NCBI RefSeq assembly: GCF_036365525.1
Contig: NC_090404.1
Location: forward strand, 11,188,550 to 11,252,549
Direction: 5' to 3'
Length of the DNA stretch: 64,000 bases
Source: Heterodontus francisci
Lineage: Eukaryota
Positions 1-32,864 of the stretch are shown one piece after another. The stretch's first letter is position 1. Each line of letters starts with the position of its first letter. Both the position numbers and the translations under genes were made by a program. The notes under the pieces were generated by a model. It saw only the letters and a program-made list of their open reading frames with translations. It was not told the origin of the DNA and made no database searches.

Positions 1-309
1 TGAAGGGCCTGTTTCAGTGCTGTATCTCTAAAGACTAAAAAAAAATCAACAAAAATACATTAACAGGAATTGAATCACTTTGATTTCTTTCTGATGTGTC
101 TGTTCATCTAGAATTAATCACACTTTAAGTCTTTTGGTACCTCCTACAGAAGGCGATGAGTTGGGATATCAGCACAAGTTGTTTCTTGATACATTATTGT
201 CACAAACTAACTGATATCGACATTTTCACAGCATGAGCAATGTCAATGTCTGACCAGTGGATGGCAGTGAAAGCCTAATTCTTGACACGAAACAGGCGCT
301 GCCTCACTG

Positions 310-1135
310 CAATGGAACCTCTCTCTGTTTATATGACACTTAGACCCTGTCTCTGTTTTATGTTACATTGAACGCTGTCCCTAATTATATTACACTTGAT
401 CCCGTCTCTGTTTATATTAAAACTAGACTCTATCTCTCGTTATATTGCACTAGACCTTGTCTCTGTGCACCTGCACTCCAAGGACTGCAGCGGTTCAAGG
501 CAGTTCACCACCACCTTCTCAAGGGCAAATACGGATGGGCAATAAATGCTGGACTAGCCAGCGAAGCACACACCCTATGAAAGAATTTTTAAAAAGAACT
601 AGATCCTGTCTCCGTTTATATTATACTCGACCCTGTCACTGTTTATGTTAATCTAGAACCCCTCTCTGTTTATATTACACTGGACCATGTCGCTGTTTAT
701 ATTATACTATGTCCTGTCTCTGTTTATATTACACTAGACTTCATTCTCTTTATATTACACTGGACCCTGTCTCTGATTATACTAAATTAGACGCCATCTC
801 TGTTTATATTGCACGAGAGTCTGTCTCTGTTTATATGCAACTAGACCCCGTCTCTGTTTATATTACACTGGACCATGACTCTGTTTATGTTGCATTGGAA
901 AATATCTCTTTTTATATTACACTGGACCCTATCTCTGTTTATATATAAGTGGAACCTGTCTCTGTTTATATTACAATAGACCCTGTCCCTGTTTATATTG
1001 CCTTTGTTTATTTTTGTCTAGATCATGTCTGTTTGTATTACACTCGACACTGTCACTGTTTGTATTTCACTGGATCGTGTGTCAGTTTATATTAAACTAG
1101 ACCCCATCAGTGTATATATTATACTAGACCCCATC
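310..1135 (+). repeat. 27-bp minisatellite A (consensus ~CTAGACCCTGTCTCTGTTTATATTACA), interrupted by a LINE 3' fragment at ~470-595
   Basis: Tandem 27-nt periodicity; gives the 9-aa LDPVSVYIT pseudo-ORFs in the ORF track. Confidence 0.9.
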
Positions 1136-1137
1136 TC

Positions 1138-2290
1138 ATAAGAACATAAGAAATTAGGTAATAGGAACAGGAGTAGTCCATTCAGCCCATCGAGCCTGTT
1201 GCCCGATACAACTAGATCATAGATGATCTTCTACCTCAATGCCATTTTACCCACACTCTCCCTATATCCCTTGATATCTTTAATATGCTTCAATGAGGTC
1301 ACAGTTTATTCTTCTAAACTCTAGATAATATAGGCCCAGCTTCCTCAATCTCCCCTCATAGGACAACCCCGCAATCCCAGGGATCAGTTTGGTGAACATC
1401 CATTGCACTCCCTCTATGGCAAGTATATCCTTCCTTAGGTAAGGATACCAAAACTATACACAATACTCCAGGTGCGGTCTCACCAAGGCTCTATACAATT
1501 GCAGCAAGACTTCTTTACTCCTGTACTCAAATCCTCTTGCAATACAGGCCACCATATCATTTGCGTTCCTTATTGCTTGCTGCATCTGCCTGTTAGCTTC
1601 CCGTGACTTATGAACAGGTTCCTTTAGACATCAACACTTCCCAATTTCGCATCACTTAAGAAATACTCAGCATTTCTGTTTTCCTACCAAAGTGTATAAT
1701 TAGACATTTTCCACATTATATTCCATCTGCCATGTCTTTGACCACTTACTTTCCCTGTCTAAATCCTTTTGTAGCCTCTTTTCATCCTCCTCACAACTCA
1801 CATTTCCACCTAGTCCCCACTTCCAAATCATTGATATAGATTGCGAGTAGCTGTAGCCCAAGCCCTGATCCACGTGGTGCCCGACTAGTCACAGCTTACC
1901 AAACTGAGGATGACTTGTTTATTCCTACTCTCAGTTTTCTGTCTGTTAACCAATTCTCAATCCATAGCAGTATATTACCCCCAATCTCACGTGCTTTAAT
2001 TTTGTTTACTAACCTCCCGTGTGGGACCTTATCTAAAGCCTTCTGAAAATCCAAATACACCATTTCCACTGGTTCCCCTTATCCATTCTATGAGTTACAT
2101 CCTATAAAACCTGGAACAGATTTTCAAACATGATTTCCCTTTCATAAGTCCCTGTTGACTCTGCCCAGTCCTACTACTATTTCTAAGTTATTGCATCCTG
2201 TCTAATAGATTTAGCAGTTTCCTTACTACTGATGTCAGGTTAACGATCTGAAGTTCCCCATTTTCTCTCTCCCTCCTTTCTTAAATGTTG
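1138..2290 (-). mobile_element. Degenerate CR1 LINE 3' portion
   Basis: Begins with the ATAAGAAC-type tail shared by other CR1 copies in the window; decayed RT-region similarity on the minus strand. Confidence 0.8.
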
Positions 2291-2455
2291 CAATAGATCC
2301 TCTGTCTCTGTTTATATTAAACTTGACCCTGTCACGGTTTATATCTAAATAGAGTCCATCTCTATTTATATTATACGAGATTGCTTCTCTGTTTAGGTTA
2401 AACTAAAACCCGTTTCCGTTTACATTATACTATACACTATCTCTGCTCATATTTA

Positions 2456-2730
2456 GGGCAGCACAGTGGCGCAGTGGTTAGCACCACAGCTCCAGCGACC
2501 CGCGTTCAATTCTGGGTACTGCCTGTGCGGAGTTTGCAAGTTCTCCCTGTGCCTGCGTGGGTTTTCACCGAGTGCTCCGGTTTCCTCCCACAGACTGACA
2601 GGTTGATAGGTAAATTGGCAATTATAAATTGCCCCTAGTACAGGTAGGGGGGAAGGGGTAGGAATATGGGATTAATGGTTGATGGTCGGCACAGACTCGG
2701 TGGGCCGGAGGGCCTGTTTCAGGCATCTCT
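2456..2730 (+). mobile_element. tRNA-derived V-SINE (HE1-like)
   Basis: A-box TGGCGCAGTGG, B-box GTTCAATTC, V-domain (GGAGTTTGCAAGTTCTCCC...GTGCTCCGGTTTCCTCCCACA) and CR1-like 3' tail; bases 1-35 are the tail of another copy. Confidence 0.85.
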
Positions 2731-2734
2731 AAAC

Positions 2735-3975: not shown

Positions 3976-4619
3976 AAAGAAAATGCTGGAAATCTGAAAT
4001 AATAGTAAGAAATGCTGGAAATACTCTGCAGGCCTGGCAGCATTTGTGGAGAGAGAAGCAGAGTTAACTTTTCAGGTCAGTGACCCTTCATAATTCTATT
4101 TTCTTCGCTTTCCCCTGTCTCAGTTATTGCTATTGCTAGTTATTAGTAGCCGGTGTTTCTGTTACCATAAAATTTACCATTTCTGTTTATATTACTCTCG
4201 ACCATGTCTCTGTTTATAATACGCTCGGCCCTCGCTCACTTCATATTGACATGACCATGTTTCATTTTCTATTCCCCTAGGCCACCCCGAATCCTAGTTT
4301 ATACTACACTGGCACATGTTTAGATTAATACTGGATGAGACCATGTCTCTATTTATTTTGCATTTGGAATTGTCTCAGTTATTACTGCACAAGGCCCAGT
4401 CTCAAATCATATTACACGCGGCCCTGCGTCAGTCAAGAGTGCACGCTATCCTGTCTCTTTTTATATTACACTAGGTATTATCTTCTTCATTGTTGCACTG
4501 TAAAACATCTTTTAGAGAGAGAGAGAGATAGATAGATAGATAGACAGACAGAAAAATAGCTAGATAGACAGATAGTGACAGTCATACATATTAATAAAAT
4601 AATGATATACATTTGTGTG

Positions 4620-5077
4620 ACGATTTAATCGTCTGTGGCTGGGAGAATACGTTCAGTCTTGTGAATAGCTATCAGCAGCTATGTGCAATTTCTAATTGCT
4701 CTGGTATTATGTGGGCAATATTTGTGTTAAAAGGATCGGGCGAATCTTGTAACAATCTCCCAGAGATGAGCTGGGATTGAGGGACAGGACTAAAGGTGAG
4801 AAATGGTGTACTGCATTTTACACTACTTAGTGACAAACTCTGTCGTGTTAAAGTTTACTAATTCATGTTTGTGTTGCACTGTGTCCATTGCTGACAGTTT
4901 TTTCAATGCTAAGGATTGTTTTATAGTGTGCCAGATTTTCTATTTAACTTTCACCTGACCCATTGATTGTGTTGGACAGAATCTAGAACCGTGTCCTCAC
5001 AGCACCACCAGATGATGTGCATTTGGGTCCTAATGTCCACCCGATTATACACCTCTCAACTCGGTACGTGGTGCAAC
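4620..5077 (+). repeat. ~460-bp locally repeated non-coding module, copy 1 (runs into N gap 5078-5225)
   Basis: Homologous to a minus-strand copy (11690-11509 plus 9860-9620, split by a LINE) and to partial copies at 23570-23790 and 24500-24730. Confidence 0.8.
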
Positions 5078-5225
5078 NNNNNNNNNNNNNNNNNNNNNNN
5101 NNNNNNNNNNNNNNNNNNNNNNNNNNNNNNNNNNNNNNNNNNNNNNNNNNNNNNNNNNNNNNNNNNNNNNNNNNNNNNNNNNNNNNNNNNNNNNNNNNNN
5201 NNNNNNNNNNNNNNNNNNNNNNNNN

Positions 5226-5790
5226 GCGATGTCTCAATTCATTCCATTTTCGCTGCCTCCGGAGAATCCTTGGCATCAGGTGGCAGAAGTCCTCGAGGAG
5301 GCAAACATCCCCAGCATATACACCCTACTGAGCCAGCGGCGCTTGAGATGGCTTGGCCATGGTAGCCGCATGGAAGATGGCAGGATCCCCAAAGACACAT
5401 TGTACAGCGAGCTCGTCACTGGTATCAGACCCACCGGCCGTCCATGTCTCCGCTTTAAAGACATCTGCAAACACGACATGAAGTCCTGTGACATTGATCA
5501 CAAGTTGTGGGAGTCAATTACTAGCGATCGCCAGAGCTGGCGGGCAGCCATAAAGGCGGGGCTAAAGTGTGGCGAATCGAAGAGACTTAGCAGTTGGCAG
5601 GAAAAAAGACAGAAGGGCAAGGGGAGAGCCAACTGTGTAACAACCCCGACAACCAATTTTATCTGCAGCACCTGTGGAAGAGTCTGTCACTCTAGAATTG
5701 GCCTTAATAGCCACTCCAGGCGCTGCTTCACAATCCACTGACCACCTCCAGGCGCTTACCCATTGTCTCTCGAGACAAGGAGGCCAAAGA
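5226..5790 (+). mobile_element. RTE-clade LINE 3' end
   Basis: Peptide RRLRWLGH..RMEDGRIPKDTLYSEL..G.RPTGRP.LRFKD plus C-terminal CxxC..H motif; AAG-repeat tail. Confidence 0.85.
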
Positions 5791-6489
5791 AGAAGAACAA
5801 AAAGAAGTGGTGGGTGGATGGGAGGGGGGCGGGGGGGATGGGGCGGTGGGGGGGGGATGTTGTGGGTGGGTTGGCTGTGTGTGGGTGGCTCTGTGTGAGG
5901 TATATGTTTGTGTATAGTGTGCATACGTCGTGTGTCTGTTTGTTTGTGGGTACAGCGTGCCGAGAACGCATAACTCTGAATGCTTGCAATGCATTGCACC
6001 AAGATAAGTGATTATGTCAACCAAGTGTTTTTCAGCATTTTATTCAATTTCGAATGATTCAAAATGTAATAACATTGCAAATCGTTTAATAACAATAAAA
6101 ATTATTCACAACCCATTCTGTTGTGTGCTTTGTTTAGAAAGTGATCTCATACTGACCATTCCGTTTCCAAGGCAAGCACATCTGTCACCGAACTCACTGT
6201 ACTCTCTCCTCCTCTCTCAGACTGACACCAACTAACTTAAAATCTCCTAGTTTCTAATTCTCTTTGGGGAAAAATCATTCGGTTAATTTTCCCTCATTTC
6301 TCCCAATGATAATCCTCAGTTCATCGCCCACTTCAGTGAATATTAAAGCCCAAATAAGTGTATGTTCTTCATTCTTTAAAATGAGAATGGAGGTGAATAC
6401 GATGGAGGGACCAGAAGCAATCTGTGTGCTGCTTCTTGATGCTGTCAGAGTGAATCCACCCTCACAGGCAGGAAGACTGCTCATGGTGA

Positions 6490-6750
6490 TAACATGAAAC
6501 TGACACCTGCTATTTCATTCTCAGACAACACAACTTCCTGTTTCTCTGCTGTCGGTTCCAAACCGCACATCTAATTTCTGAGCAGAAAATAAATCCAGGG
6601 GCCACAATCTGATGGAAACATCTGCCAATGTGGCCTATATCTGTCCACAGAGTCGGTGCAGAGTCACACAGATCACATTGTGGTGACATTTACAAATGAA
6701 CCTGTTCCTTGTCTGCATTCTCGGTCATAACTGGCGGTGTTTGTGAATCA
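6490..6750. promoter_or_regulatory. Candidate lymphoid enhancer (E-box/ETS/RUNX/MYB motif cluster)
   Basis: CACCTG 6504, ACTTCCTG 6533, AACCGCA 6561, GCCACA 6601, CATCTG 6619, TGTGGC 6629, TGTGGT 6679, TAACTG 6728, all in unique sequence; motif evidence only. Confidence 0.35.
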
Positions 6751-7529
6751 GTCACTGAGCTCCCACTGCTCTCTGAAGCCGGGAGCTGGTAGTTTGCTCC
6801 CTTTCATTTTGTATCATTCTCAATGTGTGTTCCTTGTTCCCTCTATTACTCATTCGTTATCACTCACCTCCTCGTGTTTCTGCCTTTTTGTTGAAGCCTC
6901 TCACAGTATTTTCTTTCTGTCTTTCGCTCTCTCTCTTATTCTCTCGCATCTTTTTCCAAATGTGTGTTCCTATTCCTTGAGGTGTTAAAATAATGAGGGG
7001 TTTTTGATAGATTATGTAAGGAGAAACAAGGGTTCTCCTCCTTATAGCCGGGAAGGTTAAGGGGAGATTTAATAGAAGTGTGCAAAGTTCGGAAGGAGTT
7101 TTGATAGAATAGATAGGGAGAAACCGTTTTCAATAGCAGGAGGGCTTGTAACCAGAGGGCACAGAGATTTAAGATATTTGGAAACAGAACCAGAGGAAGA
7201 GATGAGGAGAATTTAGTTTTTATACAGTGATTTACTGTGATCTGGAATGCACACCCTGAAAGGGTGCTGGAAGCAAATTGAACAGTAACTTTCAAAGGCA
7301 ACTGGATAAATAGCTGAAGGGGAGCAAAGTGGCAGCGTTATGGGGAATGGAACTAATTGAACAGCTCACTCACTTTTGCAGTGCTCTGAATTTTCCTTTG
7401 GTGAGGTTTTGAAGTTTGATTTTTTTTGGTCATCATGAACCTTCAACAGAAGGTTTAGAACATTGGTTTCTAAAAACTGTCAGCTCCACCCCTATGTTTC
7501 TGTGTAACACGGGGACTGCAATAAAGAAA

Positions 7530-7992
7530 AGGAAAGACTTGCATTTATATAGCGCTCTTCACGACCACCGGACATCTCAAAGCTCTTTCTCGCCAATGAA
7601 GTACCTTTGAAGTGCAGTCACTGTTGTAATGTAAGAAACACAGCAGCCAATTTGCAAACGACAAACTCCTCCAAACAGCAATGTGGTAATGACCAGATAA
7701 TCTGTTATTGTGATGTTGATTGAGGGATAAATATTGGCCAAGACACCGGTGATAGCTCCCTTGCTCTTCCTCCAGATGGCACCATGGGAACTTTTACATC
7801 CACCCGAGCAAGCAGACGGGGCCTCGGTTAAGCATCTCATCTGAAAGACAGCACCTCCGGCAATGCAGCACTCCCTCACGCCTGCACTACAGTGTCAGCC
7901 TTGATTTTTGTGCTCAAGCCCTGGAGTGGGTTTTGAACCCAGAAGCTTGTGACTCAGAGGTGAGAGTGTTACCAACTAACGCCCAGCTGACA
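7530..7992 (-). mobile_element. tRNA-headed DeuSINE (SacSINE1-like)
   Basis: tRNA-like head at ~7920-7990 (minus strand), central Deu-like domain and GCGCTATATAAATGCAAG-type 3' end. Confidence 0.75.
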
Positions 7993-8739
7993 GCTGCAGA
8001 AGGATGCGAAGGAGCAGATTATTTTCGGTTCCTCTGAGCGATACACCATTGTCATCTCAGATATCAGAAAACTGTGGAGCCCACCGTGTCCTCATGGTCA
8101 CCCTCTATTGTGTATCAGCTCTTAGTCAGGTGGAATCAGTCCCACGTGCCTCTGTCGTGATGTTTCCATTCGCATTTTATCACACAAATCCCTGTGTCAT
8201 TCACCATAACACAGAAGCCTGCACTAGGCCCAAAACATCATTGCTTCCCTGCACCTTGCCTTCCTATTCCAGCCTGGTGTTTAATAGGCCCCTGCCTCCC
8301 TCAATGTAAGACTACCTGCAGTAAAAGCAGCCTCTGTTATTGATACACTGGAGCCGGCCTCTGTGATTATTATTATACCAGGTCACAGTCTGCCCCGGGC
8401 CCTGCAGTTGTAGCTGCCTTCACAAATCCAAAGGCAAAGAGGTTGCGTTTTTAGGAGTGGGCGGGCACGTCAAACCTGCAGTGATGCCCCAGGAACCCCT
8501 GCCTTGCTGGTTGGAGAAACTATCCAGAGTTGCTCCGTCCGCCATTTTTTTCACTGCTTCTGAGTCTAAGAAAATAGTGGACAAAAGCACAGAAAGCCTT
8601 GTATTTAAACAGCAGTGGGAGCAGCAGGCTAGATTAAGTGGTCGAGTCTCTGGAGTGGGGCTTGAACCCACAACCATCTGACTCAGGGGTTAAAGTGTCA
8701 TCAATTATTTAATGCAGATATGGTCAATCTTCAGTTCCC

Positions 8740-9390
8740 ATTACACTAGACCATGCCTGTGTTCTTACACTAAGTCCATCTCATTCAGACGGCAGTGGTC
8801 ATTGACTCTGTTATTAGGCATTTGGCAAAGAATTTTCTATTATATCTATAGGTTCTCACTCACACACACTATGATCTGAGACCAAAAGTTTGATTTTGGT
8901 GCACTAGATACTGACTCTGTTATCATCACACTGGATCAACTGATGTGCTCATGAATACACTGCATCCTGCCTGTATATCAAATACTGTCTTTGTTACGCT
9001 CAAAGTAAGCCACGTCTTTGTTGTTATACTCTGGGTCCTGCCTCCACTCTTCCTGTATTCGAACATGTCACTGTAATTGTTACACTGAGACCCTGCCATT
9101 GTTAATGTTAGAAAAATAATCTGCCTGTTATTCCGATTCGAGTGCCCGCCTCTATTATTACTGCTGGAAACTTTGTCTCTGTCAGATTTCAATAAGAACC
9201 TATTTCTGGTATTGTTAAAGTTGACCCTGCTTCTGTTAACCTTACACTATGACGTCTTTCAGTTATTATTGTACAAAGTATTGTTTCAGTTATTATCACA
9301 TAAAGACATGTTTCTTCGAGTTTGACTTTAGGTCCTGTCTCCTTGTTATTATTGCACTTGCCCATATCTCTTTTTATATTACACGGTATT
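8740..9390 (+). repeat. Highly degenerate 27-bp minisatellite A
   Basis: Residual CACTAGAC/CTCTGTTATT periodicity. Confidence 0.6.
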
Positions 9391-9869
9391 AAAAATCTGC
9401 AGTTACAGTTTGAATAAAAGGAAATAAAATGCAGAACAAAATCTGGTCAAGTAGGTTCTATATCTTTGTGGAACGACCTTGAAATCATNNNNNNNNNNNN
9501 NNNNNNNNNNNNNNNNNNNNNNNNNNNNNNNNNNNNNNNNNNNNNNNNNNNNNNNNNNNNNNNNNNNNNNNNNNNNNNNNNNNNNNNNNNNNNNNNNNNN
9601 NNNNNNNNNNNNNNNNCTCATTTCAGTTTTTCCTTTTGATCAGATGAGGTTTTATTTTTGGACATTAGGACCCTGCGGCAGCCCTTTGGCCGGTACAGCG
9701 ACGTCACTGTTCCAGGCTGTTTCGCGCACAATCACTCGGTCAGGTGAAAACTAAATTGAAAACCCTGCAAGGCAAAAACATCCTTAACATTAAAAACTAA
9801 GCAATTGTCACAGTACAACACAAGTACGAACTAGTAATCTTTAACACAACAGAGTGTTTTTTTTTTATT

Positions 9870-11508
9870 CATTCACGGGATGTGGGCGTCGCTGGCCAGG
9901 CCAGCATTTATTGCCCATCCCGAATTGCCATTGAGAAGGTGGTGGTGAGCTGCCTTCTTGAACCGCTGCAGTCCATGTGGGGTAGGTACACCCACAGTGC
10001 TGTTAGGAAGGGAGTTCCAGGATTTTGACCCAGCGACAGTGAAGGAACGGCGATATAGTTCCAAGTCAGGGTGGTGTGTGACTTGGAGGGTAACTGGCAG
10101 GTGGTGGTTTTCCCATGTATTTGCTGACCTTGTCCTTCTAGTTGGTAGAGGTCGCGGGTTTGGAAGGTGCTGTCGAAGGAGCCTTGGTGGATTGCTGCAG
10201 TGCATCTTGTAGATGGTACATACTGCTGCCACTGTGCGTCGGTGGTGGAGGGAGTGAATGTCCTGGATGGTATCGAGCTTCTTGATTGTTGTTGGAGCTG
10301 CACCCATCCAAGCAAGTGGAAAGTATTCCATCACACTCCTGACTTGTACTTTGGAGATGGTGGACAGGCTTTGGGGAGTCCGGAGGTGAGTTACTCGCCT
10401 CAGGATTCCTAGCCTCTGACTTGCTCTTGTAGCCACGGTATTTATATGGCTACTCCAGTTCAGTTTTCGGTCAATGGTAGCCCCTAGGATGTTGATAGTG
10501 GGGGATTCAGCGATGGTAATGCCGTTGAATGTCAAGGGGAGATGGTTAGATTCTCTTTTGTTGGAGATGGTCATTGCCTGGCACTTGTGTGGCACGAATG
10601 TTACTTGCCACTTATCAGCCCAAGCCTGGATATTGTCCAGGTCTTGCTGCATTTCTACACGGACTGCTTCAGTATCTGAGGAGTTGCGAATGGTGCTGAA
10701 CATTGTGCAATCATCAGCGAACATCCCCACTTCTGACCTTATGATTGAAGGAAGGTCATTGATGAAGCAGCTGAAGATGGTTGGGCCTAGGACACTACCC
10801 TGAGGTACTCCTGCAGTGATGTCCTGGAGCTCAGGTGATTGACCTCCAACAACCACAACCATCTTCCTTTGCGCTAGGTATGACTCCAGCCAGCGGAGGG
10901 TTTTCCCCCTGATTCCCATTGACCTCAGTTTTGCTAGGGCTCCTTGATGCCATACTCGGTCAAATGCTGCCTTGATGTCAAGGGCAGTCACTCTTACCTC
11001 ACCTCTTGAGTTCAGCTCTTTTGTCCATGTTTGAACCAAGGCTGTAGTGAGGTCAGGAGCTGAGTGGCCCGGGCGGAACCCAAACTGAGCATCACTGAGC
11101 AGGTTATTGCCAAGAAAGTACCACTTGATGGCACTGCTGATGACACCTTCCATCACTTTACTGATGATTGAGAGTAGGCTAATTGGGCGTTAGTTGGCCG
11201 GGTTGGATTTGTCCTGCTTTTTGTGTACAGGACATACCTGGGCAATTTTCCACATTGCAGGTTAGATGCCAGTGTTGTAGCTGTACTGGAACAGCTTGGC
11301 TAGGGGCGCGGCAAGTTCTGGAGCACAGGTCTTTAGTACTATTGCCGGAATATTGTCAGGGCCCATAGCTTTTGCAGTATCCAGTGCCTTCAGTCGTTTC
11401 TTGATATCACGTGGAGTGAATCGAATTGGCTGAAGTTTGGCATCTGTGATGCTGGGGACTTCAGGAGGAGGCCGAGATGGATCATCCACTCGGCACTTCT
11501 GGCTGAAG
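9870..11508 (-). mobile_element. CR1/L2-group LINE, 5'-truncated, with 427-aa RT ORF (9873-11156)
   Basis: Motifs QFGFR, LDIKAAFDRV, GVPQGSVLGP, FADD; inserted into the local module. Confidence 0.92.
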
Positions 11509-11924
11509 TGTCACCAAGTAGTGTGAAGTGCTTTAGTCTTGTCCCTCAATCCCAGTCCATCTCTGGGAGATTGTTACAAGATTCACCTCATCCGTTCAAC
11601 ACAAATATTGCCCGCATTATACCAGAGCAATTAGAAATTTCACACAGCTACTGATCGCTAATAACCGGATTAAACGTATTCATCGATGCAGAAATTGATT
11701 ATAAAACGAGGTAGAAATTGCTGTCAGGCAATGCACAGAACGGACAGCATTGGATTGACTGCGGTATAGGTAGCGCCTAATATTTAATTCTGTTGATTGT
11801 AATGAAACTGAATATCAGGTGCTGCATAAAACGGGCTCACGAGCCAATAGCGCCCGTTTTGGGCCGTCACCCGAAACCAATTTCCAGTCGAACAGCTTTA
11901 TTTATAATAATATATCTTCATCTC

Positions 11925-14900
11925 GTAGAGACATGGCCTAGTGCAGTGATAATCCGACAGGGTCTAGTTTAATATAAACAAAGAGAGGGCCTCGTGCAGT
12001 AAGAACAGTGATAGGGTGTAGTGTAATAGAAACAGAGACACGACGAAGTCCACTGATAACTGAGATAGGGTCTAGTGTAATATAAACAGAGACAGGGCTG
12101 TGCATAATATAAACAGAGAGAGGGCCTAATAGTATGAACAGAGGTCGGGTCCAGTCTAAAAAAAAGACACGATGAAGTCCAGTGTTAACTGAGACAGGGT
12201 CTGGTGTAATATAAGCACAGACAAGGTCTCGTGGAATCCAATCAGAGACAGGGCCTAGTACAGTAAGAACAGAGACAGGGCCTGGTGTAATATAAACTGA
12301 GACAGGGCCTCGTGTAATATAAATTGAGACACTGCGAAGTCCAGTGATAACTGAGACAGGGTCTAGTTTAATATAAACAGAGACAGGGCCTAGTGTAATA
12401 TAAGGAGAGATAGGGACTTGCACAATATTGACCCTGACTGGATCTAGTTTAATATACACAGAGACAGGGTCCAGTGAAATATAAACAGAGACGTGGTCCA
12501 GTCTAAGATAAACAGAGACAATGTCACGTGTAATATAAACAGAGTCAGGGTACAGTGTAATATAAACAGAGAGAGCTCTAGTATAATATAAATAGATGGG
12601 GTGTAGCGTAATATAAAAAGAGACAGGGTCTTGCTTAATATTAACAGAGACTAGGCCCAGTTTCATATACACAGATAGAGCTTCCAGTGTAATAGAAACA
12701 GAGACAGGATCTAGCGTAATACAATCCGACATTGGGTGTAGTGTAATATAAACAGAGACAGGGTGTAGTCTAATAGAAACAGAGACACCATCTAGTATAA
12801 GATAGACTATAGCAGGCTCTAGCTTAATATAGACTGAGACGTGGTCTAGTGTAATATAAACACAGAGCGATCAAGAGTGATATAAACAGATGGAGTGTCG
12901 TGTAATATAAACAGATACAGTGTCGATATTAATATAAACGGAGACAGTGCCGAGCGCAATCTAAACAGAGATGTGGTCTCGGTTAATATAAACAGAGACA
13001 GGGTCTATTGTAATAGAAACAGAGATTGGGTCTAGAGCAGTAAGAACAGAGATAGGTTGTAGTGTAATATAAACAGAGACACGGTGAAGTTCAATGATAA
13101 CTGAGACAGGGTTGAGTGTAATACAAGCTGAGACAAGGCATAGTGTAATATAAAATGAGACAGGGCACACTCCAGTAATAACTGGGATAGGATCTAGTGT
13201 AATATACTCAGAGACATGGCCTCCTGTAATATAAACAGAGACAGGGTCTAGTGTAATTTAAACAGAGACAGGGTCTGGTGTAATTTAAACAGAGACTGGG
13301 TCTAGTGTAATATAAACAGAGGCAGGGCCTAGTGCAGTAAGAACAAAGACAGGGTTTCATGTAATATAAACAAAGGCAGGGTCTAGTACAATATTAACGT
13401 AGAGAGAGGTCTTAGTTTAATATAAAGAGACGTGTTTCAGTGGAGTAATAACAGGGACCTGCATTAGTATAATATGAGCAGGGAAAGAGCATAATGCAAT
13501 ATAAATAGAGCAAGAGCCTATATAAACAGAGAAAGAACCTAGTATAATATAGCATAAAAGAGTTTTAGTGTATAATAAACAGCACGGGTCTCGTGTAATA
13601 TAATCAGAGACACGGCTAAGCCCAATGATAACTGAGACAGGGTGTAGTGTAATATAATCAGAGACATTGACTAGTCCAGCATTAAATGAGACTGGATTTA
13701 ATGTAGTATAAACAGACACAGGGTTTGCTGCAGAAATAACAGAGACTTTGCCAAATTTAATATGAACAAAGAGATAGTCCTGTGCAGTAACAGCTGAGAC
13801 AGGGTCTCGTGCAGTAATAACTGAGAGATGGACGGGTGCAATACGATCGGAGACAGAGTCTGTTGTAATATAAAAAGGAATACAGGGCCTAGTGCACCAA
13901 TTATTGATACAGGAACTATAGTAATATAAATCAACACTGGGTCTAGTTCAGTAATTACTGAGACAGGGCCTAGTGCAGTAAAAACTGAGAATGGGTTTCG
14001 TGTAGTATTAACAGACATGGTCTAGTCTAATTTAAACAGATGCATGTTTCATTGTAATATGAAATGAGTACAATAATAATTGAGACAGAATCTTGTGTAA
14101 TGTGAACAGGTACATGGTATAGTAGTATCATAAGTGAAACAGGGCCTAGTAGAAGAAACACTGAGACGAGGCCCAGTGCAGTTTTACCTGATCGAGGACA
14201 TTGTGTATAATAAACTGAGACAGACCCTCGTGCATTAATTATTGATACAGGACTTCGGTTTCGATGATCTGAGACATGGACAAGTGCAGCAATAATTGAG
14301 ACAGGATTCCGTGTAGTAGTAACATTTAACAGAGAGATGGTTAAGTACAGTAATAACGGAAACAAGGCTTTGTGTGATAGAAACAGAAAGGTGGTCTAGT
14401 GCAGTAATACCTGAGACAGGACATTGTGTATTACAAGCAGAAATATTGTCCAGTATATTACCACCTGAGATTGGGCCAATGTAGAAATACCTGAGGCATA
14501 GACTGCTTTTATATGATCAGAGATAACGTTTGTTGGAATGCAAATAGGAAAATTACCGAGTGTAATATCAACAGAGACACCATCTAAAGATTAAAGCAGG
14601 CTCTAGCTTAATATAAACTGAGGCATGGTCTCGTGTAATATAAACAGATACAGGTCTAGTGTAATATAAACAGAGTCAGGGCCTAGTTTAATGCAAACAG
14701 ACAGGGCCCAGTGTAATATAAGCAGAGACAGCGTCTACTGTAATATAAACAAAGGCAGGGTCTAGTGTAATATAAACAGATACAGGGTCTAGTGTAATAT
14801 AAACAGAGACAGGGTCTAGTGTAATATAATCAGAGTTGGGGTCTAGTGTAACACAAACAGAGACAGTGTGTAGTGTAATATAAACGGAGACAGTGTTTAG

Positions 14901-20479: not shown

Positions 20480-20600
20480 AGGCAGGAGGATGAGTTGGTG
20501 TCCTTCCCCACTGCGGGTACAGGACATCCTTGCTCCACTGCATGTCCTCCACCAGGACCTGCAGTGCTGTGTTTGAGAATATGTGCACCCACTCAAATGG
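20480..20600 (-). mobile_element. Possible decayed Harbinger Myb/SANT-like ORF remnant
   Basis: Peptide FSNTALQVLVEDMQWSKDVLYPQWG resembles the first helix of Harbinger Myb/SANT proteins as I recall them; no transposase seen. Confidence 0.35.
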
Positions 20601-20917
20601 TTCCTGACCCATCCTGAAACATGTCACTGTGTGTCAGCCAGGTTACCCCACAGTGATAATAGATGTGGGTACATGGATCCCACATATACTGCGTCAAGAA
20701 AATTGCAGTAAATCAGCACTTGAGTGCTAAACCTGTCGGTCTCTGGTTTAACGACTCGAGGCAATTTCAGTTATGGTAATCAGCAATTAGATCAAAATTG
20801 GATGCTAAATCCAGACATTCAAACGGGGATGTTTCATTAGCACTGTGGCCATTTAGCCCCTGTATTCACCAAAGTGTTTATTATATATGCATTTGTGTAT
20901 GAATACGAAACACATCA

Positions 20918-21559
20918 GTGTCCTCAGTACCTTGCTCTATGGCAGCGAGGCCTGGACAATGTATGTCAGCCAAGAGCGATGTCTCAATTCATTCCATCTT
21001 CGCTGCCTCCGGAGAATACTTGGCATCAAGTGGCAGGACCGTATCTCCAACACAGAAGTCCTCGAGGCGGCCAACATCCCCAGCTTGTACACACTACTGA
21101 GTCAGCGGCGCTTGAGATGGCTTGGCCATGTGAGCCGCATGGAAGATGGCAGGACCCCCAAAGACACATTGTACAGCGAGCTCGCCACTGGTATCAGATC
21201 CACCGGCTGTCCATGTCTCCGCTTTAAAGACGTCTGCAAACGCGACATAAAATCCTGTGACATTGATCACAAGTCGTGGGAGTCAGTTGCCAGCATTCGC
21301 CAGAGCTGGCGGGCAGCCATAAAGACGGGGCTAAAATGTGGCGAGTCGAAGAGACTTAGTAGTTGGCAGGAAAAAAGACAGAGGTGCAAGGGGAGAGCCA
21401 ACTGTGCAACAGCCCCGACAAACAAATTTATCTGCAGCATCTGTGGAAGAGCCTGTCACTCTAGAATTGGCCTTTATAGCCACTCCAGGCGCTGCTTCAC
21501 AAACCACTGACCACCTCCAGGCGCGTATCCATTGTCTCTCGAGATAAGGAGGCCAAAGA
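20918..21559 (+). mobile_element. RTE LINE, 5'-truncated, with 13-bp target-site duplication
   Basis: LLYGSEAW...RRLRWLGHV ORF; TSD ACGAAACACATCA at 20905-20917 and 21560-21572. Confidence 0.9.
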
Positions 21560-22109
21560 ACGAAACACATCACATTGTTTGCAGTTCCACAAATATAAAT
21601 AATTACCGTCAACAATTTTTTTCGCATTTTTCTAATTCAAAATGTAATTGCAGATCGAGGGTAATGAGCAGCTTCACACCAGTCCCTGTGCTTTATAGTT
21701 AAGTGATCATCTCACCATAACACAGAAGCTGTTGATATATACCTCACGTGTGTAATGATTTATGCAAGTAATGGTAAAAATGAAACTACCTGTACCCCAT
21801 GTGAAGTTCATCAATCTGTAAATGACCGATTTATTACTTTCCTCGTTTGCACAGAAATGAAACAATTTCTGCTTTCCAGTGAGTTCTGCACAATTTGTGT
21901 TTCCATCGACTTCATTTTTCGCCTGTTACCTTCACTATTTCCTCCCGACATCTTCCAATATTTTTATGGTTAGTTCATGAATAACTGAGACACAAACTAA
22001 CATATTTTAAGAAGTGACATGATTTAGTGGCATAAATAGAGATAAGGCTTAGTGCTGCAATAACTGAGACAAAGCCTAGCCTAATATAAAAAGCGACATG
22101 GTCTAGTGT

Positions 22110-22350
22110 AACAAAAACAAGAAATGCTGGATTCACTCAGCAGGTCTGGCAGCATCTGTGGAAAGAGAAGCAGAGTTAACGTTTCGGGTCAGTGACCCTT
22201 CTTCGGAACAGTTCCGAGGAAGGGTCACTGACCCGAAACGTTAACTCTGCTTCTCTTTCCACAGATGCTGCCAGACCTGCTGAGTGAATCCAGCATTTCT
22301 TGTTTTTGTTTCAGATTTCCAGCATCCGCAGTATTTTGCTTTTATTTTAG
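22110..22350. mobile_element. Penelope-like pseudo-LTR insertion forming a near-perfect palindrome (arms 22110-22209 / 22211-22310)
   Basis: 100-bp arms, one mismatch, 1-nt spacer; same sequence as the 3' end of the GIY-YIG element at 52500-52600; TGGTCTAGTGTAA duplicated at 22099 and 22351. Confidence 0.85.
22210..22246 (+). ncRNA. Putative minimal hammerhead ribozyme (mirror copy on the minus strand at 22174-22210)
   Basis: AGTT-CCGAGGA-A-GGGTC(ACT)GACCC-GAAACGTT-AACT: C(U>C)GANGA core, stem II, GAAA, palindromic ACGT helix III, stem I AGTT/AACT. Confidence 0.5.
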
Positions 22351-23029
22351 TGGTCTAGTGTAATATCAGTGGGACACGATTTCGTATAATATAAGTGGGA
22401 CTAGTGAAGTAATAACTGAGCAAGGTCTAATGTATTATAAACAGGCAAATGGCCTCCTGCACGTGGTCTATTTGAGTAAGCTAAGACAGGGCCTAGTGTA
22501 ATGGAAACGGAGATATAGTCCAATACAGTTATAACTGCAACAGGGCCTAGTGCAATCTGAGAAGAAGTGTGTTCTAGTGCGATAATAACCTAAAATGTGT
22601 TGTGTGAAATATAAACAACGAGATAGTCTAATCCAGTGTGAACTGAGCAAATGTCTAGAGTAATATAAACAGAGACAGGGTCTATTGCAGTAATAAAGCA
22701 GGCAGGGTCTAGTGTAACATAAACAGAGACAGACTACTGTGAAATATCAGCAGAGACTTGATTTAGTCGAGTAACAACTGAAGCAAAATCTAGTGAAATG
22801 GAAATAGAGACATGGTTTCATAACTGAGGGAGGAGAAGGTGTAATATAAACGGAGAGAAAGAGAGCTGGTCGAGTGCATTAATAACTGAGACAGAATCTT
22901 GAATAATATACGAGGAGGCACATTCTTCTGCATTTAAAACTGAGACATAGCCAGAGTGACGTCAACAGAAATAGGGTCGATTGCAATGTAAAGTGTACTA
23001 CAGGACCACGTATATGTTTATATTACACA

Positions 23030-23435
23030 AGAACATTAGAAATGGGAGCAGGAGTAGGCCATTCAGCTCTTCGAGTCCGCTCGCCATTCAATGAGATCAT
23101 GGATGATCTTCTACATCAACACCAAAATCCTGCACGATCCCCATATCCCTTGATGTTTTAAAAATGTGGAAATCTATTTATCTCAGTCTTGAACATATTC
23201 AACGACTGAGCCTCCACAGCCCTCTGGGGTAGAGAATTCCTAAGATTTACTACGCTCTGAGTGAAGAAAGTCCTCCTCATCTCAGTCCTAAATGGTCTGC
23301 CCCTTATTCTGAGACTGTGTCCCCTGGTTCTCGACTCCCCGGTCAGGAGAAACATGCTTCCTGCATCATCTTTGTCGAGCCCTGTAAGAATTTTGCATAC
23401 TTAAATTAGATCACCTCTCATTCTTCTAAACTCCC
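23030..23435 (-). mobile_element. CR1 LINE 3' end (partly duplicated in inverted form at 24270-24503)
   Basis: SRTRGHSLRIRGRPFRTEMRR.FFTQ peptide in both copies. Confidence 0.85.
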
Positions 23436-25244
23436 GTTAAGAAAGGTCCAGTCTATTTCGTTAGGCCTTGTCTCAGTTCTCGTTGCACTAGGCTATAGAC
23501 TACTCGAGTAGAAAAATAATTATTATGCTAATCTTTTACAAAACAACAGTAGGCCTCAGCAGGGTAACATAACAATCTCCCAGAGATGAATTGTAACTGA
23601 AAGACAGGACCAAATGTGAGCAATAATGCATTTCAGTTTTCACTACGTTGTGACAAACTGTTATGTTAACGTTTATCAATTCACACTTGTGTTGTACTGT
23701 GATAATTGCTCACAGCTTCTTTTTGTTGCTAAGGGATGTTTTTCCTGCAGGATTTTCTATCTTCCTATCCTTCCTGCCTGGTGCAACAATCTCTGTACCT
23801 TTAAAGGATGTACATTCTTAAGATAACAGTACCAGGAGTCATTCAAAACGTATAGCACTCACATTTATAGCCCTTTCATAATTGGCTCAAAAGGATTTTA
23901 GTGTATGTCCCTTGGCCACCATATCTCTACACTGTTCCCCCCAATTCAACCTTTCATCAGTAAACTGAAATTGAATTGAATTGAATATCATGTTAGATCA
24001 TAACTGTTTAATTACATTAGACCATGGCTTCGTTTATATTATACCAGGCCGTATCTTGGTTAATTTTACAGCACCAGATCATTTCATTGTTAGATTAATA
24101 TGAATATAAATGAAAATATATGTCTGTGTGTGGTTACGTTAACGTTAACATAAGTTTGTCACAATGTAGTGAAAAATGAAATGGATTATTGCTCACCTTT
24201 GGTCCTGTCTTTCAGTTCCAATGAGGACTGAGACAAGGCCTAACGAAATAGACTGGGCATTTCTTAACGGGAGTTTAGAAGAATGAAAGGTGATCTAATT
24301 TAAACATACAAAATTCCTACAGGGCTCGACAAGGTTGATGCAGGAAGCATGTTTCCTCTGACCAGGGAGTCGAGAACCAGGGGACACAGTCTCAGAATAA
24401 GGGGCAGACCATTTAGGACTGAGATGAGGAGGACTTTCTTCACTCAGAGCGTAGTAAATCTTAGGACTTCTCTGCCCCAGAGGGCTTTGGAGGCTCAGTC
24501 GTTTAATCTTGTTAAAAGCTATCAGCAGCTGTGTGCAATTTCTAATTGCTCTGGTATTATATGGGTAATATTTGTGTTGAAATGATGGGGTGAATCTTAT
24601 AACAATCTCCGAGAGAAGAATGTGTCAGATAGAATCTGGAACCGTGACGACACAGCACAGCGGTATGGGCTGCTTCAGGGTCCTAAAATCCGCCCAATGC
24701 CATAGCTCTCAGCTGCTGGATCGGAGCAACCTAAAACTAACCGAACACACAGACACACACACAAGTGTATATGTATGCGTATGTGTGTATGTATATAAAT
24801 ATATTATATATATATATATTATAGATAGATAGGTGTGTGTGTGCATATATATAAAATGTTTGTGTGTATGTGTGTTTGTCTAGAAAGCACATCATTATTA
24901 ATATTTGCAAGTGATTCGATATATGTAGATGATTATCTTCACAAATTATGTTTTAGCATTGTATTTCCTTCTACTCAAAACGTATTTGGAGATCATTGAT
25001 ACATTTGAACAAGCCTCTAAATTTATTACACACGACTATTTCGCTATTCATATTACACTATATCACCCTCGACATCGTCTCAATTATTACTGCACTCGAC
25101 TACGGCTTTGTTTCTATTACACTCGGTACTGTATCATTTATTATTGCATTGCACAATGTTTCAATTTATATTGCACTACATCCTGCCTCAGTTATTACTA
25201 AACCGTGCCATTCATCTGTCCTCGTCTCAGTTCTCATTACACTA

Positions 25245-26800
25245 GGAAAAATGTGAGGTGATCCACTTTTGTAAGAGGAGTAGAATGTGCAGAGTATTTC
25301 TTAAATGGTGAGAGATTAGAAAGTGTAGATGTACAAAGGGGCCTGGGTGTCCTTGTCAATAAGCCACTGAAAGCTAACATGCAGGTGCAGCAAGCAATTA
25401 GGAAGGCTAATGGTATGTTAGCCTTTATCGCAAGAGGATTTGAGTACAGGAGTAATGAAGTCTTGCTTCAATTGTATAGAACCTTGATTAGACCACACCT
25501 AGAGTACTGTGTGCAGTTTTGCTCTCCTTACCTTAGGAAGGATATTATTGCTATAGTGCCATTATTGCAACGAAGGTTCACCAGACTTGTTCCCGGGATG
25601 GCAGGACGGTCCTATGAAGAGAGTTTGAGGAAACTGGGCCTGTATTCTCTAGAGTTTCCAAGAATGGGAGGTGATCTCATTGAAACCTACAAAATACTAA
25701 AAGGGATAGACAGGCTATATACAGCTAAGATGTTTCCCCTGGTTGGGGAGTCTAGAACCGGGGGTCATAATTTCAAAATAAGGGGGAAGCCACTTAGGAC
25801 AGAGATGAGGAGAAATTTCTTTACTCAGAGGGCTGTGAATCTTTGGAATTCTCTACCCCAGAGGGCTGTGGAAGCTCAGTCATTGCGTATGTTTAAAGTA
25901 GAGATTGGCAGATTTCTAAATACAAATGACATAAGGGGATATGAGGATAGTGTGGGATAGAGACATTGAAGTGGAAGCTCAGCCATGATCATATGGAATG
26001 GCGGGGCAGGTTTTGATAGGCTGAATGGCCTACTCCTGCTCCTATGTTCCTATGTTCCTAGACTACTCCAGTCGAAAAATAATGATCATGATAAACTTTT
26101 ACAAACCAGCAGTAAGCCTCAGCTGGAGTATTGTGTCCAATTCCCGGCACCACATCTTCAGATGGATATCGAAGCCTTGGAGAAGGTCCAGAAAAGATTT
26201 TCTAAGATGGTACCATGGATGAAAGATTTCAGTTACGTGGAGAGAGCGACGAAGCTGAGGTTGTTCTGCTGAGAGCAGAGAAAGTTAAAAGGAGATTTCA
26301 AAATTATGAAGCGTTTGATTGAATAAATAAGCTGAAAATATTTCCAGTGGCAGAAGGGTCGGTAACCAGAGGGAACAGATTCAAGAAAAACAGCAAAGTA
26401 ACCAAAGGCTACATATAGATGACTTGGATCTTGGAATACAGAGTAGAATCGCAAGATTTGCTGATAACACCAAACTTGGAGGCGTGACAAACAGTGAGGA
26501 CGATATGAGTCACCTGCAACAGGACCGAGATAGGCTAGCGGAGTGAGAAGACAAGTGCCAGATGGAATTTAATGCTGACAAGTATGAGGCGATGCATTTT
26601 GGCTGTAAGAATAGGGAGAGGCAATATATACTTAATGACACCGTTCTAAAGAGTGTGCAGGAACAGAGGAACCTGGGGGTGCATGTACATCGATCTTTGA
26701 ATGTGGCAGGACATAAGTGGGAGGAGGATCATGTGCATCATAAGCACCAGCACAGGCAAGTTGGGCTGAGTGGCCTGTTCCTGTGCTGTAAATTCTATGT
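25245..26800 (+). mobile_element. Cluster of CR1 LINE fragments
   Basis: RPHLEYCVQF, RGDLIETYK-like and MEFNADK peptides; CTATGTTC tail at ~26050. Confidence 0.85.
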
Positions 26801-26988
26801 AATTTTCCAGTCTAATCCTTTAAATTCTCAAAAAGAAGGATTGCATCCGCCTCTGTTCCGGGCTGGAAAACAGGACAGGCCCCAGAGGGGAAAAGGAAAA
26901 CATTTAAAATGTCTCTCACATCTAACCAACGGCTTCATTGTCTCTGGAATTCTTCAGTTTATTGACATTTATTTAAATTTTTCTGCAG

Positions 26989-27380
26989 TTAAAGATCTGC
27001 GGGAACCATCCGTGTCTGTCCTCCTGCCCCTGGCAGAAGATGTCTCTGCTCAGAGGTTTCTCTCCCTCACTTGCTTAGTGAGAGGTTTCTCCCCCCGAGA
27101 GATCTTCATCAAGTGGACCGTCAATGACAAGTCGGTGAATCCCGGCAACTACAAGAACACTGAGGTGATGGCAAGGAACGACGATAGCTCCTACTTCATC
27201 TACAGCCTGTTATCCATTGCAGCGGAGGAGTGGGCCAGCGGCACTTCTTACTCCTGTGTGGTGGGACATGAGGCGACCCCCTTGAAGATCATCAACAGAA
27301 CAGTTAATAAATCGAGCGGTAAACTGAGTTTTGTGAACATTTCCCTTGCTCTATTGAACACTGTCAATTCATGTCAATGA
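26989..27380 (+). CDS. IGHM: IgM heavy-chain Cmu4 exon plus secretory tailpiece
   Basis: Acceptor TTTTCTGCAG|TT; C1-set domain [38 protein letters not shown]; tailpiece [20 protein letters not shown] with NIS sequon and penultimate Cys, matching shark mu as I recall it; internal donor G|GTAAA at 27318/27319 for the membrane form. Confidence 0.95.
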
Positions 27381-27408: not shown

Positions 27409-27425
27409 AATAAAACACCAATAAA
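27409..27425 (+). terminator. Tandem polyadenylation signals for secreted mu
   Basis: AATAAA at 27409-27414 and 27420-27425, just after the stop codon. Confidence 0.8.
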
Positions 27426-31400: not shown

Positions 31401-32030
31401 ATCTCTCTTCATAAGACAAACCCCTCATCTCTGGAATCAATCTAGTGAACCTCCTCTGAACTGCCTCCAATGTAACTACATCCCTCCTCAACTAAAAAAA
31501 AGTAGACATCAACACAAAAACACACAAGTTATCACAATTATGGGAGCGCAAGCACACAAAAGCAAGCAGATGAACACACCTATATACACATTCATTCGCA
31601 CATAAACACACATTAACTTAAAGGGACACATAAACACATCCAGCAACACAGAAACACAGATTAATAAGCTCATGGGGGACACAAACACACATATAACCAA
31701 ATGTTAAGGCGCTCATACACACACATGGACAGATAGACACAATACACACACACACACACACACAGGTGGTCACTTGAATACACACATCAATGCATATTTC
31801 CACATTAACACACATTAACATATATGGACACATACACACAACCATCAACAGATAAACAAACACATTAATACACTCGCTTTTGGGTATCCAAACAAACAAA
31901 TAAACAAACTCATTAACACTCACACACACTCACACATGGATACACAAACACAGAGTAATGCAAAGCAAGAGATACTCATACAGACATACAAACGCACTAA
32001 AGCGCACAAACAAAAACACCAGACTGTAGA
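28480..32030. mobile_element. CA-rich low-complexity tract split by nested CR1 LINEs (outer 28855-29085 plus 31195-31495; inner 29086-31195, minus strand, 397-aa RT ORF 29164-30357)
   Basis: GRSCLTNL, YMDFSKAFDKVPH, GVPQGSVLGP, KFADD; lies in the Cmu4-TM1 intron. Confidence 0.9.
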
Positions 32031-32582
32031 CGAAAGCAGAATTCAAATGCACTATTTGAACAGATACCGTCTCCAACATTTTCCATCATACATCACAGTG
32101 AAGCAATGTTCTCACTTAGAAACTGAGATGAATTAATGATTTGCCAACCACTTTCATCACAAATAAACAAACAGGATTGGAACTCTTATCCGATCCCTTA
32201 CCCAGCAACACTGTCAATTTCCAAATAAGTAGCTATCTGAACCTATCTTCAAAATAATTGTTATCGATCAGTAAACCTCCATCGATATCGCACCATAATA
32301 ATCCCTTAGGATAGAACAAAACCAATCCAAAATAAAATAGCGCCTGACATTGAAGAAAAAAAACTGACATATTTTCCAACAGGGCCTAGGCGAGGATCAT
32401 AAGGGTTGAACGCTGAGGAGTTAATGGCAGAAATAGATTGCTGAACGTGATTAACTTAACAATAGATATGCATTGAAGATCAAATTGAAGAACTGAAGGA
32501 AGAAAACTGAATGCAAAATAGCAATCTTATATCCTGCATTAATAAACGATATAAATACATTTGTTCCTCTACATCCCCATAG

Positions 32583-32710
32583 ATTCCTCACACCACATCT
32601 GGATTGAAGACAATGAGGAAGAGAGGGACAACACCTGGACAACCGCTTCCACATTCATCATCCTGTTCTTCCTGAGCATTTTCTACAGTGCTGCCGTCAC
32701 TCTGGTGAAG
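32583..32710 (+). CDS. IGHM: IgM transmembrane exon TM1
   Basis: AG|AT...AAG|GTGAGA; in phase with the Cmu4 internal donor; encodes (D)SSHHIWIEDNEEERDNTWTTASTFIILFFLSIFYSAAVTLVK with the conserved antigen-receptor TM (CART) residues; missed by the ORF track. Confidence 0.95.
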
Positions 32711-32855
32711 GTGAGAATATTCAAACCACTCATACTTTAGTTTCACTGAAACCGTTTGACAAATCTCTAAAAGTTTCAGAGATTTAAGAAAAACTCTGAG
32801 ATGAATGTCCCGGAACATGAAATCTCTGCTTTATTCTTTTATCCCTCTTTTACAG

Positions 32856-32864
32856 GTCAAGTGA
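32856..32864 (+). CDS. IGHM: IgM TM2 exon (VK-stop; cytoplasmic KVK)
   Basis: Polypyrimidine tract plus TACAG|GTC AAG TGA. Confidence 0.9.
   Translation, partial: VK

What the first reader, a model, noticed from the sequence alone, without database searches (positions are those of the whole stretch)
1..32864. Apparently orphan but intact Cmu4-sec/TM module: no Cmu1-3, JH or VH seen in 27 kb upstream
Seen: I find no other C1-set exon, J motif or RSS-flanked segment between 1 and 26988. The only unreadable parts are gaps of 148 N and 128 N, nominally too short for a ~300-bp domain exon. Yet Cmu4, both poly(A) signals, the alternative donor, TM1 and TM2 are preserved. Established: shark IgM clusters are normally compact, on the order of 20-25 kb in total. 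Inference, three options: (a) a satellite-inflated giant Cmu3-Cmu4 intron; (b) a cluster decapitated by the local inversions; (c) a stand-alone tail cassette spliced onto another upstream exon, giving a short-chain or TCR/Ig hybrid with both secreted and membrane outputs.
Basis: partly seen in the sequence, partly recalled or inferred. Interest (0 to 1): 0.7.

Follow-up and report, generated by a model that had tools for sequence, protein, structure and literature searches.

The report
Beheaded shark IgM, still spliced
A shark antibody (IgM) gene lost its variable part and first three constant exons in one clean deletion, and the leftover tail is spliced to a repeat-derived exon 22 kb upstream that cannot encode an antibody, so it is likely an ordinary transcribed pseudogene rather than a new antibody form.

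Summary
No VH, D, JH or Cmu1-3 lies in the window, 200 kb upstream or 100 kb downstream. The cause is neither a giant intron nor an inversion. At 26716/26717, sequence that lies 5-6 kb upstream of VH in sibling IgM clusters is joined directly to the Cmu3-Cmu4 intron: one deletion of 14-19 kb. A DNA contig spans the junction. One contig from an RNA-like run matches 4680-4795 and 26989-27061 with no differences, a GT-AG splice across 22,193 nt. That exon comes from a dispersed repeat, has stops in the Cmu4 frame and no leader, so the RNA is likely sterile. The tail is not fully intact: Cmu4 has 8 private replacement and 3 silent changes, and the membrane poly(A) signal reads AGTAAA, against AATAAA in 7 of 7 siblings. 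The locus sits among TCR alpha/delta-type V genes, as published for other sharks (PMC12227049). This scan already noted a similar IgM tail elsewhere on this chromosome (e1-9831511). Verdict: transcribed IgM pseudogene remnant, low interest.

The parts
4508..26716 (+). Retained 5' flank of the IgM minicluster (repeats, LINE pieces, 27-bp satellite). In siblings this sequence lies upstream of VH.
   Evidence: Collinear blastn chain 4508-26715 against positions 2144-16314 of intact sibling cl12232001, whose VH starts at 20983; same pattern in three more siblings.
4588..4923 (+). Dispersed repeat of about 340 bp that carries the splice donor; co-amplified in IgM flanks and also present on contigs C28 and C894 with no Ig exon in the 10-20 kb fetched
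   Evidence: no Rfam match in it.
4680..4795 (+). Non-coding upstream exon (true 5' end unknown), spliced from donor AAG|GTGAGA to Cmu4; stops in the Cmu4 frame at about 4693 and 4750
   Evidence: Run X5 contig of 189 nt: 116 nt here and 73 nt at 26989-27061, no differences; frames.
11956..18114 (.). 27-bp satellite arrays (11956-15600 and 16861-18114); part of the 5' flank, not a Cmu intron
   Evidence: Tandem repeat scan; same satellite upstream of VH in siblings.
26716..26717 (+). Deletion junction between two LINE-like remnants; removes promoter, leader, VH, D1, D2, JH and Cmu1-3 (14.4-19.1 kb in four sibling frames)
   Evidence: unique among 40 scored genome hits; spanned by an X1 DNA contig 26686-26796 with no differences.
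26717..26988 (+). Last 272 bp of the Cmu3-Cmu4 intron with an intact acceptor
   Evidence: 71-90% identical to the same intron in 28 siblings; the 29th matches from 26839 only.
26989..27380 (+). Cmu4 exon with secretory tail; internal donor for the membrane form at 27318|27319; 8 private replacement and 3 private silent changes
27409..27425 (+). Two AATAAA signals for the secreted form
   Evidence: Sequence.
32583..32710 (+). TM1 exon, open, canonical AG/GT
32856..32864 (+). TM2 exon (VK stop)
33282..33287 (+). Membrane-form poly(A) signal, mutated to AGTAAA
   Evidence: AATAAA at this place in 7 of 7 siblings.

Best explanation
This is an IgM heavy-chain minicluster that lost its promoter, leader, VH, D, JH and Cmu1-3 in one deletion, and whose surviving Cmu4 acceptor is spliced to a repeat-derived exon 22 kb upstream, giving an RNA that is likely non-coding, so the locus is likely a transcribed pseudogene. 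Shown: the junction, what was lost, the splice in one contig, and the closed reading frame of the upstream exon. Inferred: the deletion arose in one step by end-joining between two unaligned LINE-like remnants (at most about 2 nt of microhomology, no RSS heptamer). Inferred: transcription starts in or above the repeat, as read-through or from a cryptic start. With VH to Cmu3 gone, the Cmu4 acceptor is the first Ig acceptor downstream of this donor. Inferred: the tail looks intact because only about 11 private changes have built up in 390 nt.
For: Junction anatomy. Junction present in DNA reads. No upstream Ig exon, JH or RSS. Spliced contig is copy-specific: the nearest of 29 siblings differs at 4 or more of 71 positions compared, and the same record (189 nt, depth 12.7) lies on both exons. 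The first ATG that opens into Cmu4 is Met60 at 27168, the sixth ATG of the modelled RNA; it would give 70 aa (secreted) or 95 aa (membrane) without signal peptide or the first domain cysteine. Private changes of 8 N to 3 S fit neutrality (ratio 0.81; binomial p=0.73) and hit residues that are otherwise invariant among the 30 copies (P14L, E62R, N65D, A85T, I96T, P112L, D123N). Mean pN is the highest of 30 copies. Membrane poly(A) is mutated. A frame stays open after 11 random changes in 31-76% of simulations. A second tail-only cluster (L024) has other breakpoints, a frameshift in the tail, and is never sister to this one (0 of 200 bootstrap trees), so such remnants recur.
Against: Relaxed selection is not statistically shown: Fisher p=0.11 against 22 undamaged copies, and whole-lineage pN/pS is 0.30, inside the range of other copies (0.12-0.52). 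All splice sites, both tails and the secreted poly(A) are intact, and the locus is transcribed and spliced. The RNA evidence is one contig in one run of one sample, labelled RNA only by guess; it was not among the contigs laid from X6 or X7. The 5' end of the RNA is unknown. The loose-end table was cut (364 rows not shown), so other upstream exons are not excluded.
Confidence: 0.86

Rival explanations
1. The 4795 donor marks a far-upstream non-coding first exon that is used by IgM clusters in general (a germline or sterile transcript that could open the locus), and the deletion merely exposes it by leaving Cmu4 as its acceptor.
For: AG|GT is kept at the orthologous place in 10 of 11 top IgM-flank copies fetched (L092-L102). 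Fifteen of the 20 top hits have a same-strand Cmu4 17-43 kb downstream, this locus included. The donor is used in this copy. Sterile IgH transcripts are known in sharks (PMC5192425, passage seen).
Against: The donor motif belongs to a dispersed repeat. Related copies read through it unspliced in X5, X6 and X7. Copies off C34 read GTCAG and have no Ig exon nearby. The same review passage says promoters appear to be associated only with V segments. Sibling use of the donor was not tested: one search kept only contigs 95% alike, and siblings are about 77-85% alike.
Confidence: 0.07
2. A TCR V leader, or a rearranged V, from the surrounding TCR alpha/delta region is spliced in frame to Cmu4 and makes a one- or two-domain secreted or membrane protein.
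For: Four plus-strand TCR-type V genes with 23-RSS lie 10-27 kb left of the window. Leader and Cmu4 introns are both phase 1 (established Ig/TCR gene structure, recalled; Cmu4 phase seen in the sequence). Both tails are open, and long-range splicing into this acceptor occurs.
Against: No J and no RSS between those V genes and Cmu4. The only copy-specific upstream exon found is non-coding. Private changes fall on otherwise invariant residues. Membrane poly(A) is mutated.
Confidence: 0.03
3. The gene is ordinary, and Cmu1-3 are hidden in under-sized N stretches, lie beyond a giant intron, or were lost by misassembly or moved by an inversion.
For: Two N stretches cannot be read. The region is rich in repeats. 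The best DNA run may be the assembly's own sample. Zygosity was not determined.
Against: The junction is an exact same-strand join at 26716/26717, far from both N stretches, and is spanned by a DNA contig. Flanks of the N stretches are 5'-flank sequence. No Cmu1/Cmu2 piece lies between 10.15 and 12.04 Mb among 40 scored hits of 58 candidates. The spliced RNA skips from 4795 straight to Cmu4.
Confidence: 0.03

Closest known systems
Horn shark (Heterodontus francisci) IgM heavy-chain miniclusters (P0004, membrane C region)
   Same: Cmu4, secretory tail, TM1/TM2 layout and splice sites; 92% aa identity in Cmu4; sibling L012 is 100% identical to P0004 in Cmu3 and Cmu4.
   Different: No promoter, leader, VH, D, JH or Cmu1-3; first exon replaced by a repeat exon; membrane poly(A) mutated.
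V-less and pseudo IgM models in the elasmobranch antigen receptor complex (Flajnik et al. 2025, PMC12227049)
   Same: IgM copies interleaved with TCR alpha/delta V and NARTCR segments (parts 1-2 of 8 of the text read). Table S1 lists 'IgM (missing V)' and 'IgM pseudo?' models in great white shark (part 1 of 2 read).
   Different: Those are gene models of about 14-19 kb in other species. The parts I read give no Cmu4-only remnant, breakpoint or spliced transcript, and the main text does not mention horn shark.
Nurse shark IgM pseudogenes (Groups 6-8, G2C) and sterile IgH transcripts
   Same: Non-functional clusters are a normal part of the multicluster IgM family (PMC2435157 passages; PMC5192425 passages).
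   Different: Those pseudogenes still hybridise with a VH probe. Known sterile transcripts come from unrearranged loci with V-linked promoters; here the V promoter region is deleted.
Mammalian I-exon germline transcripts and repeat-derived cryptic exons (recalled, no call)
   Same: A non-coding upstream exon with stops spliced to a C exon.
   Different: No switch region or regulated promoter is shown; the exon is a dispersed repeat and the acceptor is Cmu4, not Cmu1.

Membership tests
Functional shark IgM minicluster | Leader-VH-D1-D2-JH with RSS upstream of the C exons | tested here: not met
   positive control in 3 of 3 siblings.
Functional shark IgM minicluster | Cmu1, Cmu2 and Cmu3 exons | tested here: not met
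   Absent from the window, 200 kb upstream and 100 kb downstream.
Functional shark IgM minicluster | Cmu4 with secretory tail, internal donor, TM1 and TM2 | tested here: met
IgM pseudogene remnant | Derived from the IgM cluster family, with paralogous flanks and introns | tested here: met
IgM pseudogene remnant | A disabling lesion that prevents a heavy chain | tested here: met
   Deletion of 14-19 kb at 26716/26717.
IgM pseudogene remnant | Loss of purifying selection | tested here: inconclusive
   Private N:S 8:3, ratio 0.81 against 0.25, Fisher p=0.11; pairwise pN/pS 0.30, not an outlier.
Transcribed pseudogene / sterile Ig transcript | Copy-specific spliced RNA | tested here: met
   One contig, one run, one sample; the run is RNA by guess.
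Transcribed pseudogene / sterile Ig transcript | No in-frame start or signal peptide feeding the C exon | tested here: met
   For the observed isoform only.
Transcribed pseudogene / sterile Ig transcript | No protein product | not testable with these tools
   Needs proteomics or ribosome profiling.
Ig-TCR hybrid receptor (trans-rearrangement, NARTCR, TAILV; defined in PMC12227049) | A rearranging V(D)J joined to the C exon | tested here: not met
   No J or RSS between the upstream V genes and Cmu4; the observed upstream exon is non-coding. Truncated tables leave rare isoforms open.
RAG-mediated germline joining or deletion | Breakpoints at RSS heptamers | tested here: not met
   No heptamer within 40 bp of either parental breakpoint in 4 of 4 siblings.

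The most novel reading that the evidence does not exclude
The repeat-borne donor at 4795 is a far-upstream first exon shared by horn shark IgM clusters, the source of I-exon-like germline transcripts that open each minicluster. The deletion reveals it, and the remnant keeps feeding transcription, or a leader-Cmu4 mini-protein with secreted and membrane forms, into the TCR alpha/delta V region around it.
Probability: 0.08. Interest if true: 0.6.

Novelty: new member of a known kind. Interest (0 to 1): 0.2.

Why it matters
As a pseudogene it is a tidy case of gene death in the shark multicluster IgM family, with an exact breakpoint. It also warns that Cmu4-sec/TM gene models and Cmu4 RNA reads overcount functional IgM. 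It would matter more if the upstream donor were used by intact clusters, because how single shark IgH miniclusters become accessible is still open (PMC2435157, abstract and passages seen) and this would supply a testable upstream transcript.

Tried and rejected
Giant intron and inversion: rejected. Homologous recombination between LINE tails: 26717-26830 matches the intronic tail at 81-86% and the upstream LINE's own tail only partly, at 66-76%, so a one-step join at unaligned positions fits better. RAG-mediated deletion: no heptamer at the breaks. Common origin with the second tail-only cluster L024: rejected. Structured RNA in 3900-12000: one Rfam hit, below its gathering score. The sigma-70 promoter scan does not apply to a eukaryote and was ignored. 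The run search listed no holder on record as RNA. The splice was not among the contigs laid from X6 or X7, and contig depths cannot rank expression, so neither point is used as evidence. One search was meant as a Cmu3 query but covered the Cmu1-end/Cmu2-start stretch; it is read as such. Per-branch substitution counts were not obtained, so the selection test rests on private and pairwise counts. The identity of the C1 exon 70 kb upstream stays open: PDB hits are generic Ig C domains. Three papers could not be opened (PMC3222143, PMC7039070, PMC3360817); nothing is cited from their text. Six literature searches (listings only, apart from the three papers opened) showed no description of this remnant or its splice. 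Most subscription journals are not covered, and the PDF supplement and part 2 of Table S1 of PMC12227049 were not read.
Full report
What is there. The exon at 26989-27380 encodes an open Cmu4 domain plus secretory tail, 92% identical to the horn shark IgM C region P0004. TM1 (32583-32710) and TM2 (32856-32864) follow with canonical splice sites. The window is G000:C34:11188550-11252549. The genome search scored 40 Cmu4 copies out of 59 candidates, all 40 on C34. I fetched 30 of them with 1.5 kb flanks, seven sibling clusters at 40-50 kb each, 200 kb upstream and 100 kb downstream of the window.

The missing part. Tblastn shows no VH or Cmu1-3 in the window or the 300 kb around it, nor does blastn with a sibling's own exons. 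The RSS scan is empty between window -9515 and 28592, while the same scan finds the VH, D and JH signals in 3 of 3 intact siblings. Of the 29 other copies fetched, 28 have Cmu3 within 1.5 kb of Cmu4.

The cause is a deletion. To the right of 26717 the window matches the last 272 bp of the Cmu3-Cmu4 intron of siblings. To the left of 26716 it matches, on the same strand, DNA that lies 4.7-5.7 kb upstream of VH in four siblings. The chain runs back to about 4.5 kb of the window in sibling cl12232001 and includes the 27-bp satellite. The lost interval measures 14.4, 16.9, 18.6 and 19.1 kb in the four sibling frames. The join has at most about 2 nt of microhomology and no RSS heptamer, and it links unaligned positions of two LINE-like remnants (the LINE label is my reading of the sequence, no repeat library was searched). 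End-joining is the likely route; this step is inferred. The junction is unique among 40 scored genome hits. A DNA contig of run X1 spans it with no differences, 31 letters on the left and 80 on the right; that run may be the assembly's own sample. The two N stretches lie inside the 5' flank and do not bear on the junction.

The remnant is spliced. In run X5, one contig of 189 nt and depth 12.7 matches 26987-27061 with no differences and carries further letters that do not fit the intron. The nearest of 29 siblings differs at 4 or more positions there. A search for the upstream donor gave one candidate in 227 kb, at 4795. Laying the runs on 4300-5070 then showed a record of the same length and depth on 4680-4795 with no differences, its loose end being the first 30 bases of Cmu4. 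The intron is GT-AG and 22,193 nt long. X5 is RNA only by the tool's guess, but it also shows Cmu3-to-Cmu4 and Cmu4-to-TM1 joins of siblings. No such loose end was among the rows shown for the DNA run (2 rows not shown). Limits: one contig, one run, one sample; not seen in X6 or X7; level and 5' end unknown.

The RNA is likely sterile. The upstream exon lies in a dispersed repeat of about 340 bp (593 candidates), also found on C28 and C894 with no Ig exon in the stretches fetched. In the Cmu4 frame it holds stops at about 4693 and 4750, and no ATG follows the last stop. The first ATG that opens into Cmu4 is Met60, the sixth ATG of the modelled RNA. It would give 70 or 95 residues without a signal peptide or the first cysteine of the domain. 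The donor itself is kept as AG|GT in 10 of 11 top IgM-flank copies, so it predates the deletion. I infer that the deletion left Cmu4 as the first Ig acceptor available to it. Whether intact clusters use the donor was not tested.

Is the tail preserved by selection? It carries 8 private replacement and 3 private silent changes against 297 and 90 sites, a ratio of 0.81 against 0.25 for 22 undamaged copies (6 damaged copies and the two tail-only copies were left out; all 28 give 41:47). This fits neutrality (p=0.73) but does not differ significantly from the undamaged copies (p=0.11). Pairwise pN is the highest of 30 copies, yet pN/pS (0.30) is not an outlier because pS is also the highest. The membrane poly(A) signal reads AGTAAA where 7 of 7 siblings read AATAAA. 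An open frame after 11 random changes is expected in 31-76% of simulations, depending on the indel rate assumed. The intact look needs no selection, but decay is suggested rather than proven.

Context. The remnant lies among TCR alpha/delta-type V genes on both strands, at 55.4-62.7 kb in the window and from -3.7 to -89 kb upstream (the TCR label rests on low identity to VH, 23-RSS and my reading of the sequences). This arrangement, including V-less and pseudo IgM models, is published for other sharks (PMC12227049). A second tail-only cluster (L024, C34:8333058) has different breakpoints, a frameshift in the tail and a separate place in the tree. No J lies between the upstream V genes and Cmu4, so a rearranged hybrid has no route in cis. 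A leader-to-Cmu4 splice would be in frame and is not excluded, but nothing supports it.

Verdict. A beheaded IgM minicluster with a cryptic, likely sterile transcript: a new member of a known kind, interest 0.2. The one lead worth an experiment is whether the conserved upstream donor is used by intact clusters (probability about 0.08 for the bold reading).

Noticed in passing
G000:C34:8293001-8343000 (L071-L075, L024): Second IgM cluster with Cmu4 and TM1 but no VH or Cmu1-3 in 40 kb upstream; different breakpoints, a 2-nt deletion in the secretory tail, and the same repeat donor 22.2 kb upstream. It would be predicted to give the same kind of spliced RNA.
   Followed up: partly
window 55438-62700: Five TCR alpha/delta-type V segments on both strands; four checked are open V-set domains with 23-RSS-like signals, and the one at 62447-62696 is broken.
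   Followed up: partly
L058:9575-9877 minus (about 70 kb left of the window) and L056-L057: A NARTCR-like cassette on the minus strand (NAR-type V with RSS, a D with two 12-RSS, a V with extra cysteines; label recalled), followed about 7.6 kb further by an open C1-set exon only about 22% like IgM, identity unresolved.
   Followed up: partly
L052-L053 (15-27 kb left of the window): Three near-identical TCR-type V genes repeated at 6-kb intervals, a recent tandem triplication.
   Followed up: no
G000:C34:13630562-13631898 (L034): Sibling cluster L002 has an insertion of about 1 kb inside Cmu3.
   Followed up: no
G000:C34:10473001-10513000 (L044-L047): Sibling cluster L005 has Cmu1-4 and TM1 but no VH hit in about 22 kb upstream of Cmu1.
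   Followed up: no
L021, L025, L027, L028, L030: Other damaged Cmu4 copies: an 8-nt deletion (L021), a one-codon-early stop with loss of the tail cysteine position (L025), and acceptor AG changed to AT (L027, L028, L030).
   Followed up: no
window 4742-4794: Contigs of 1.5-2.9 kb in runs X5, X6 and X7 hold a related copy of the repeat read through unspliced, so the repeat also lies inside another transcript.
   Followed up: no
window 49804-50283 and 34207-34465: A second, unrelated 27-bp array (91% matches) and a 66-bp array; the latter is shared with sibling 3' flanks.
   Followed up: no
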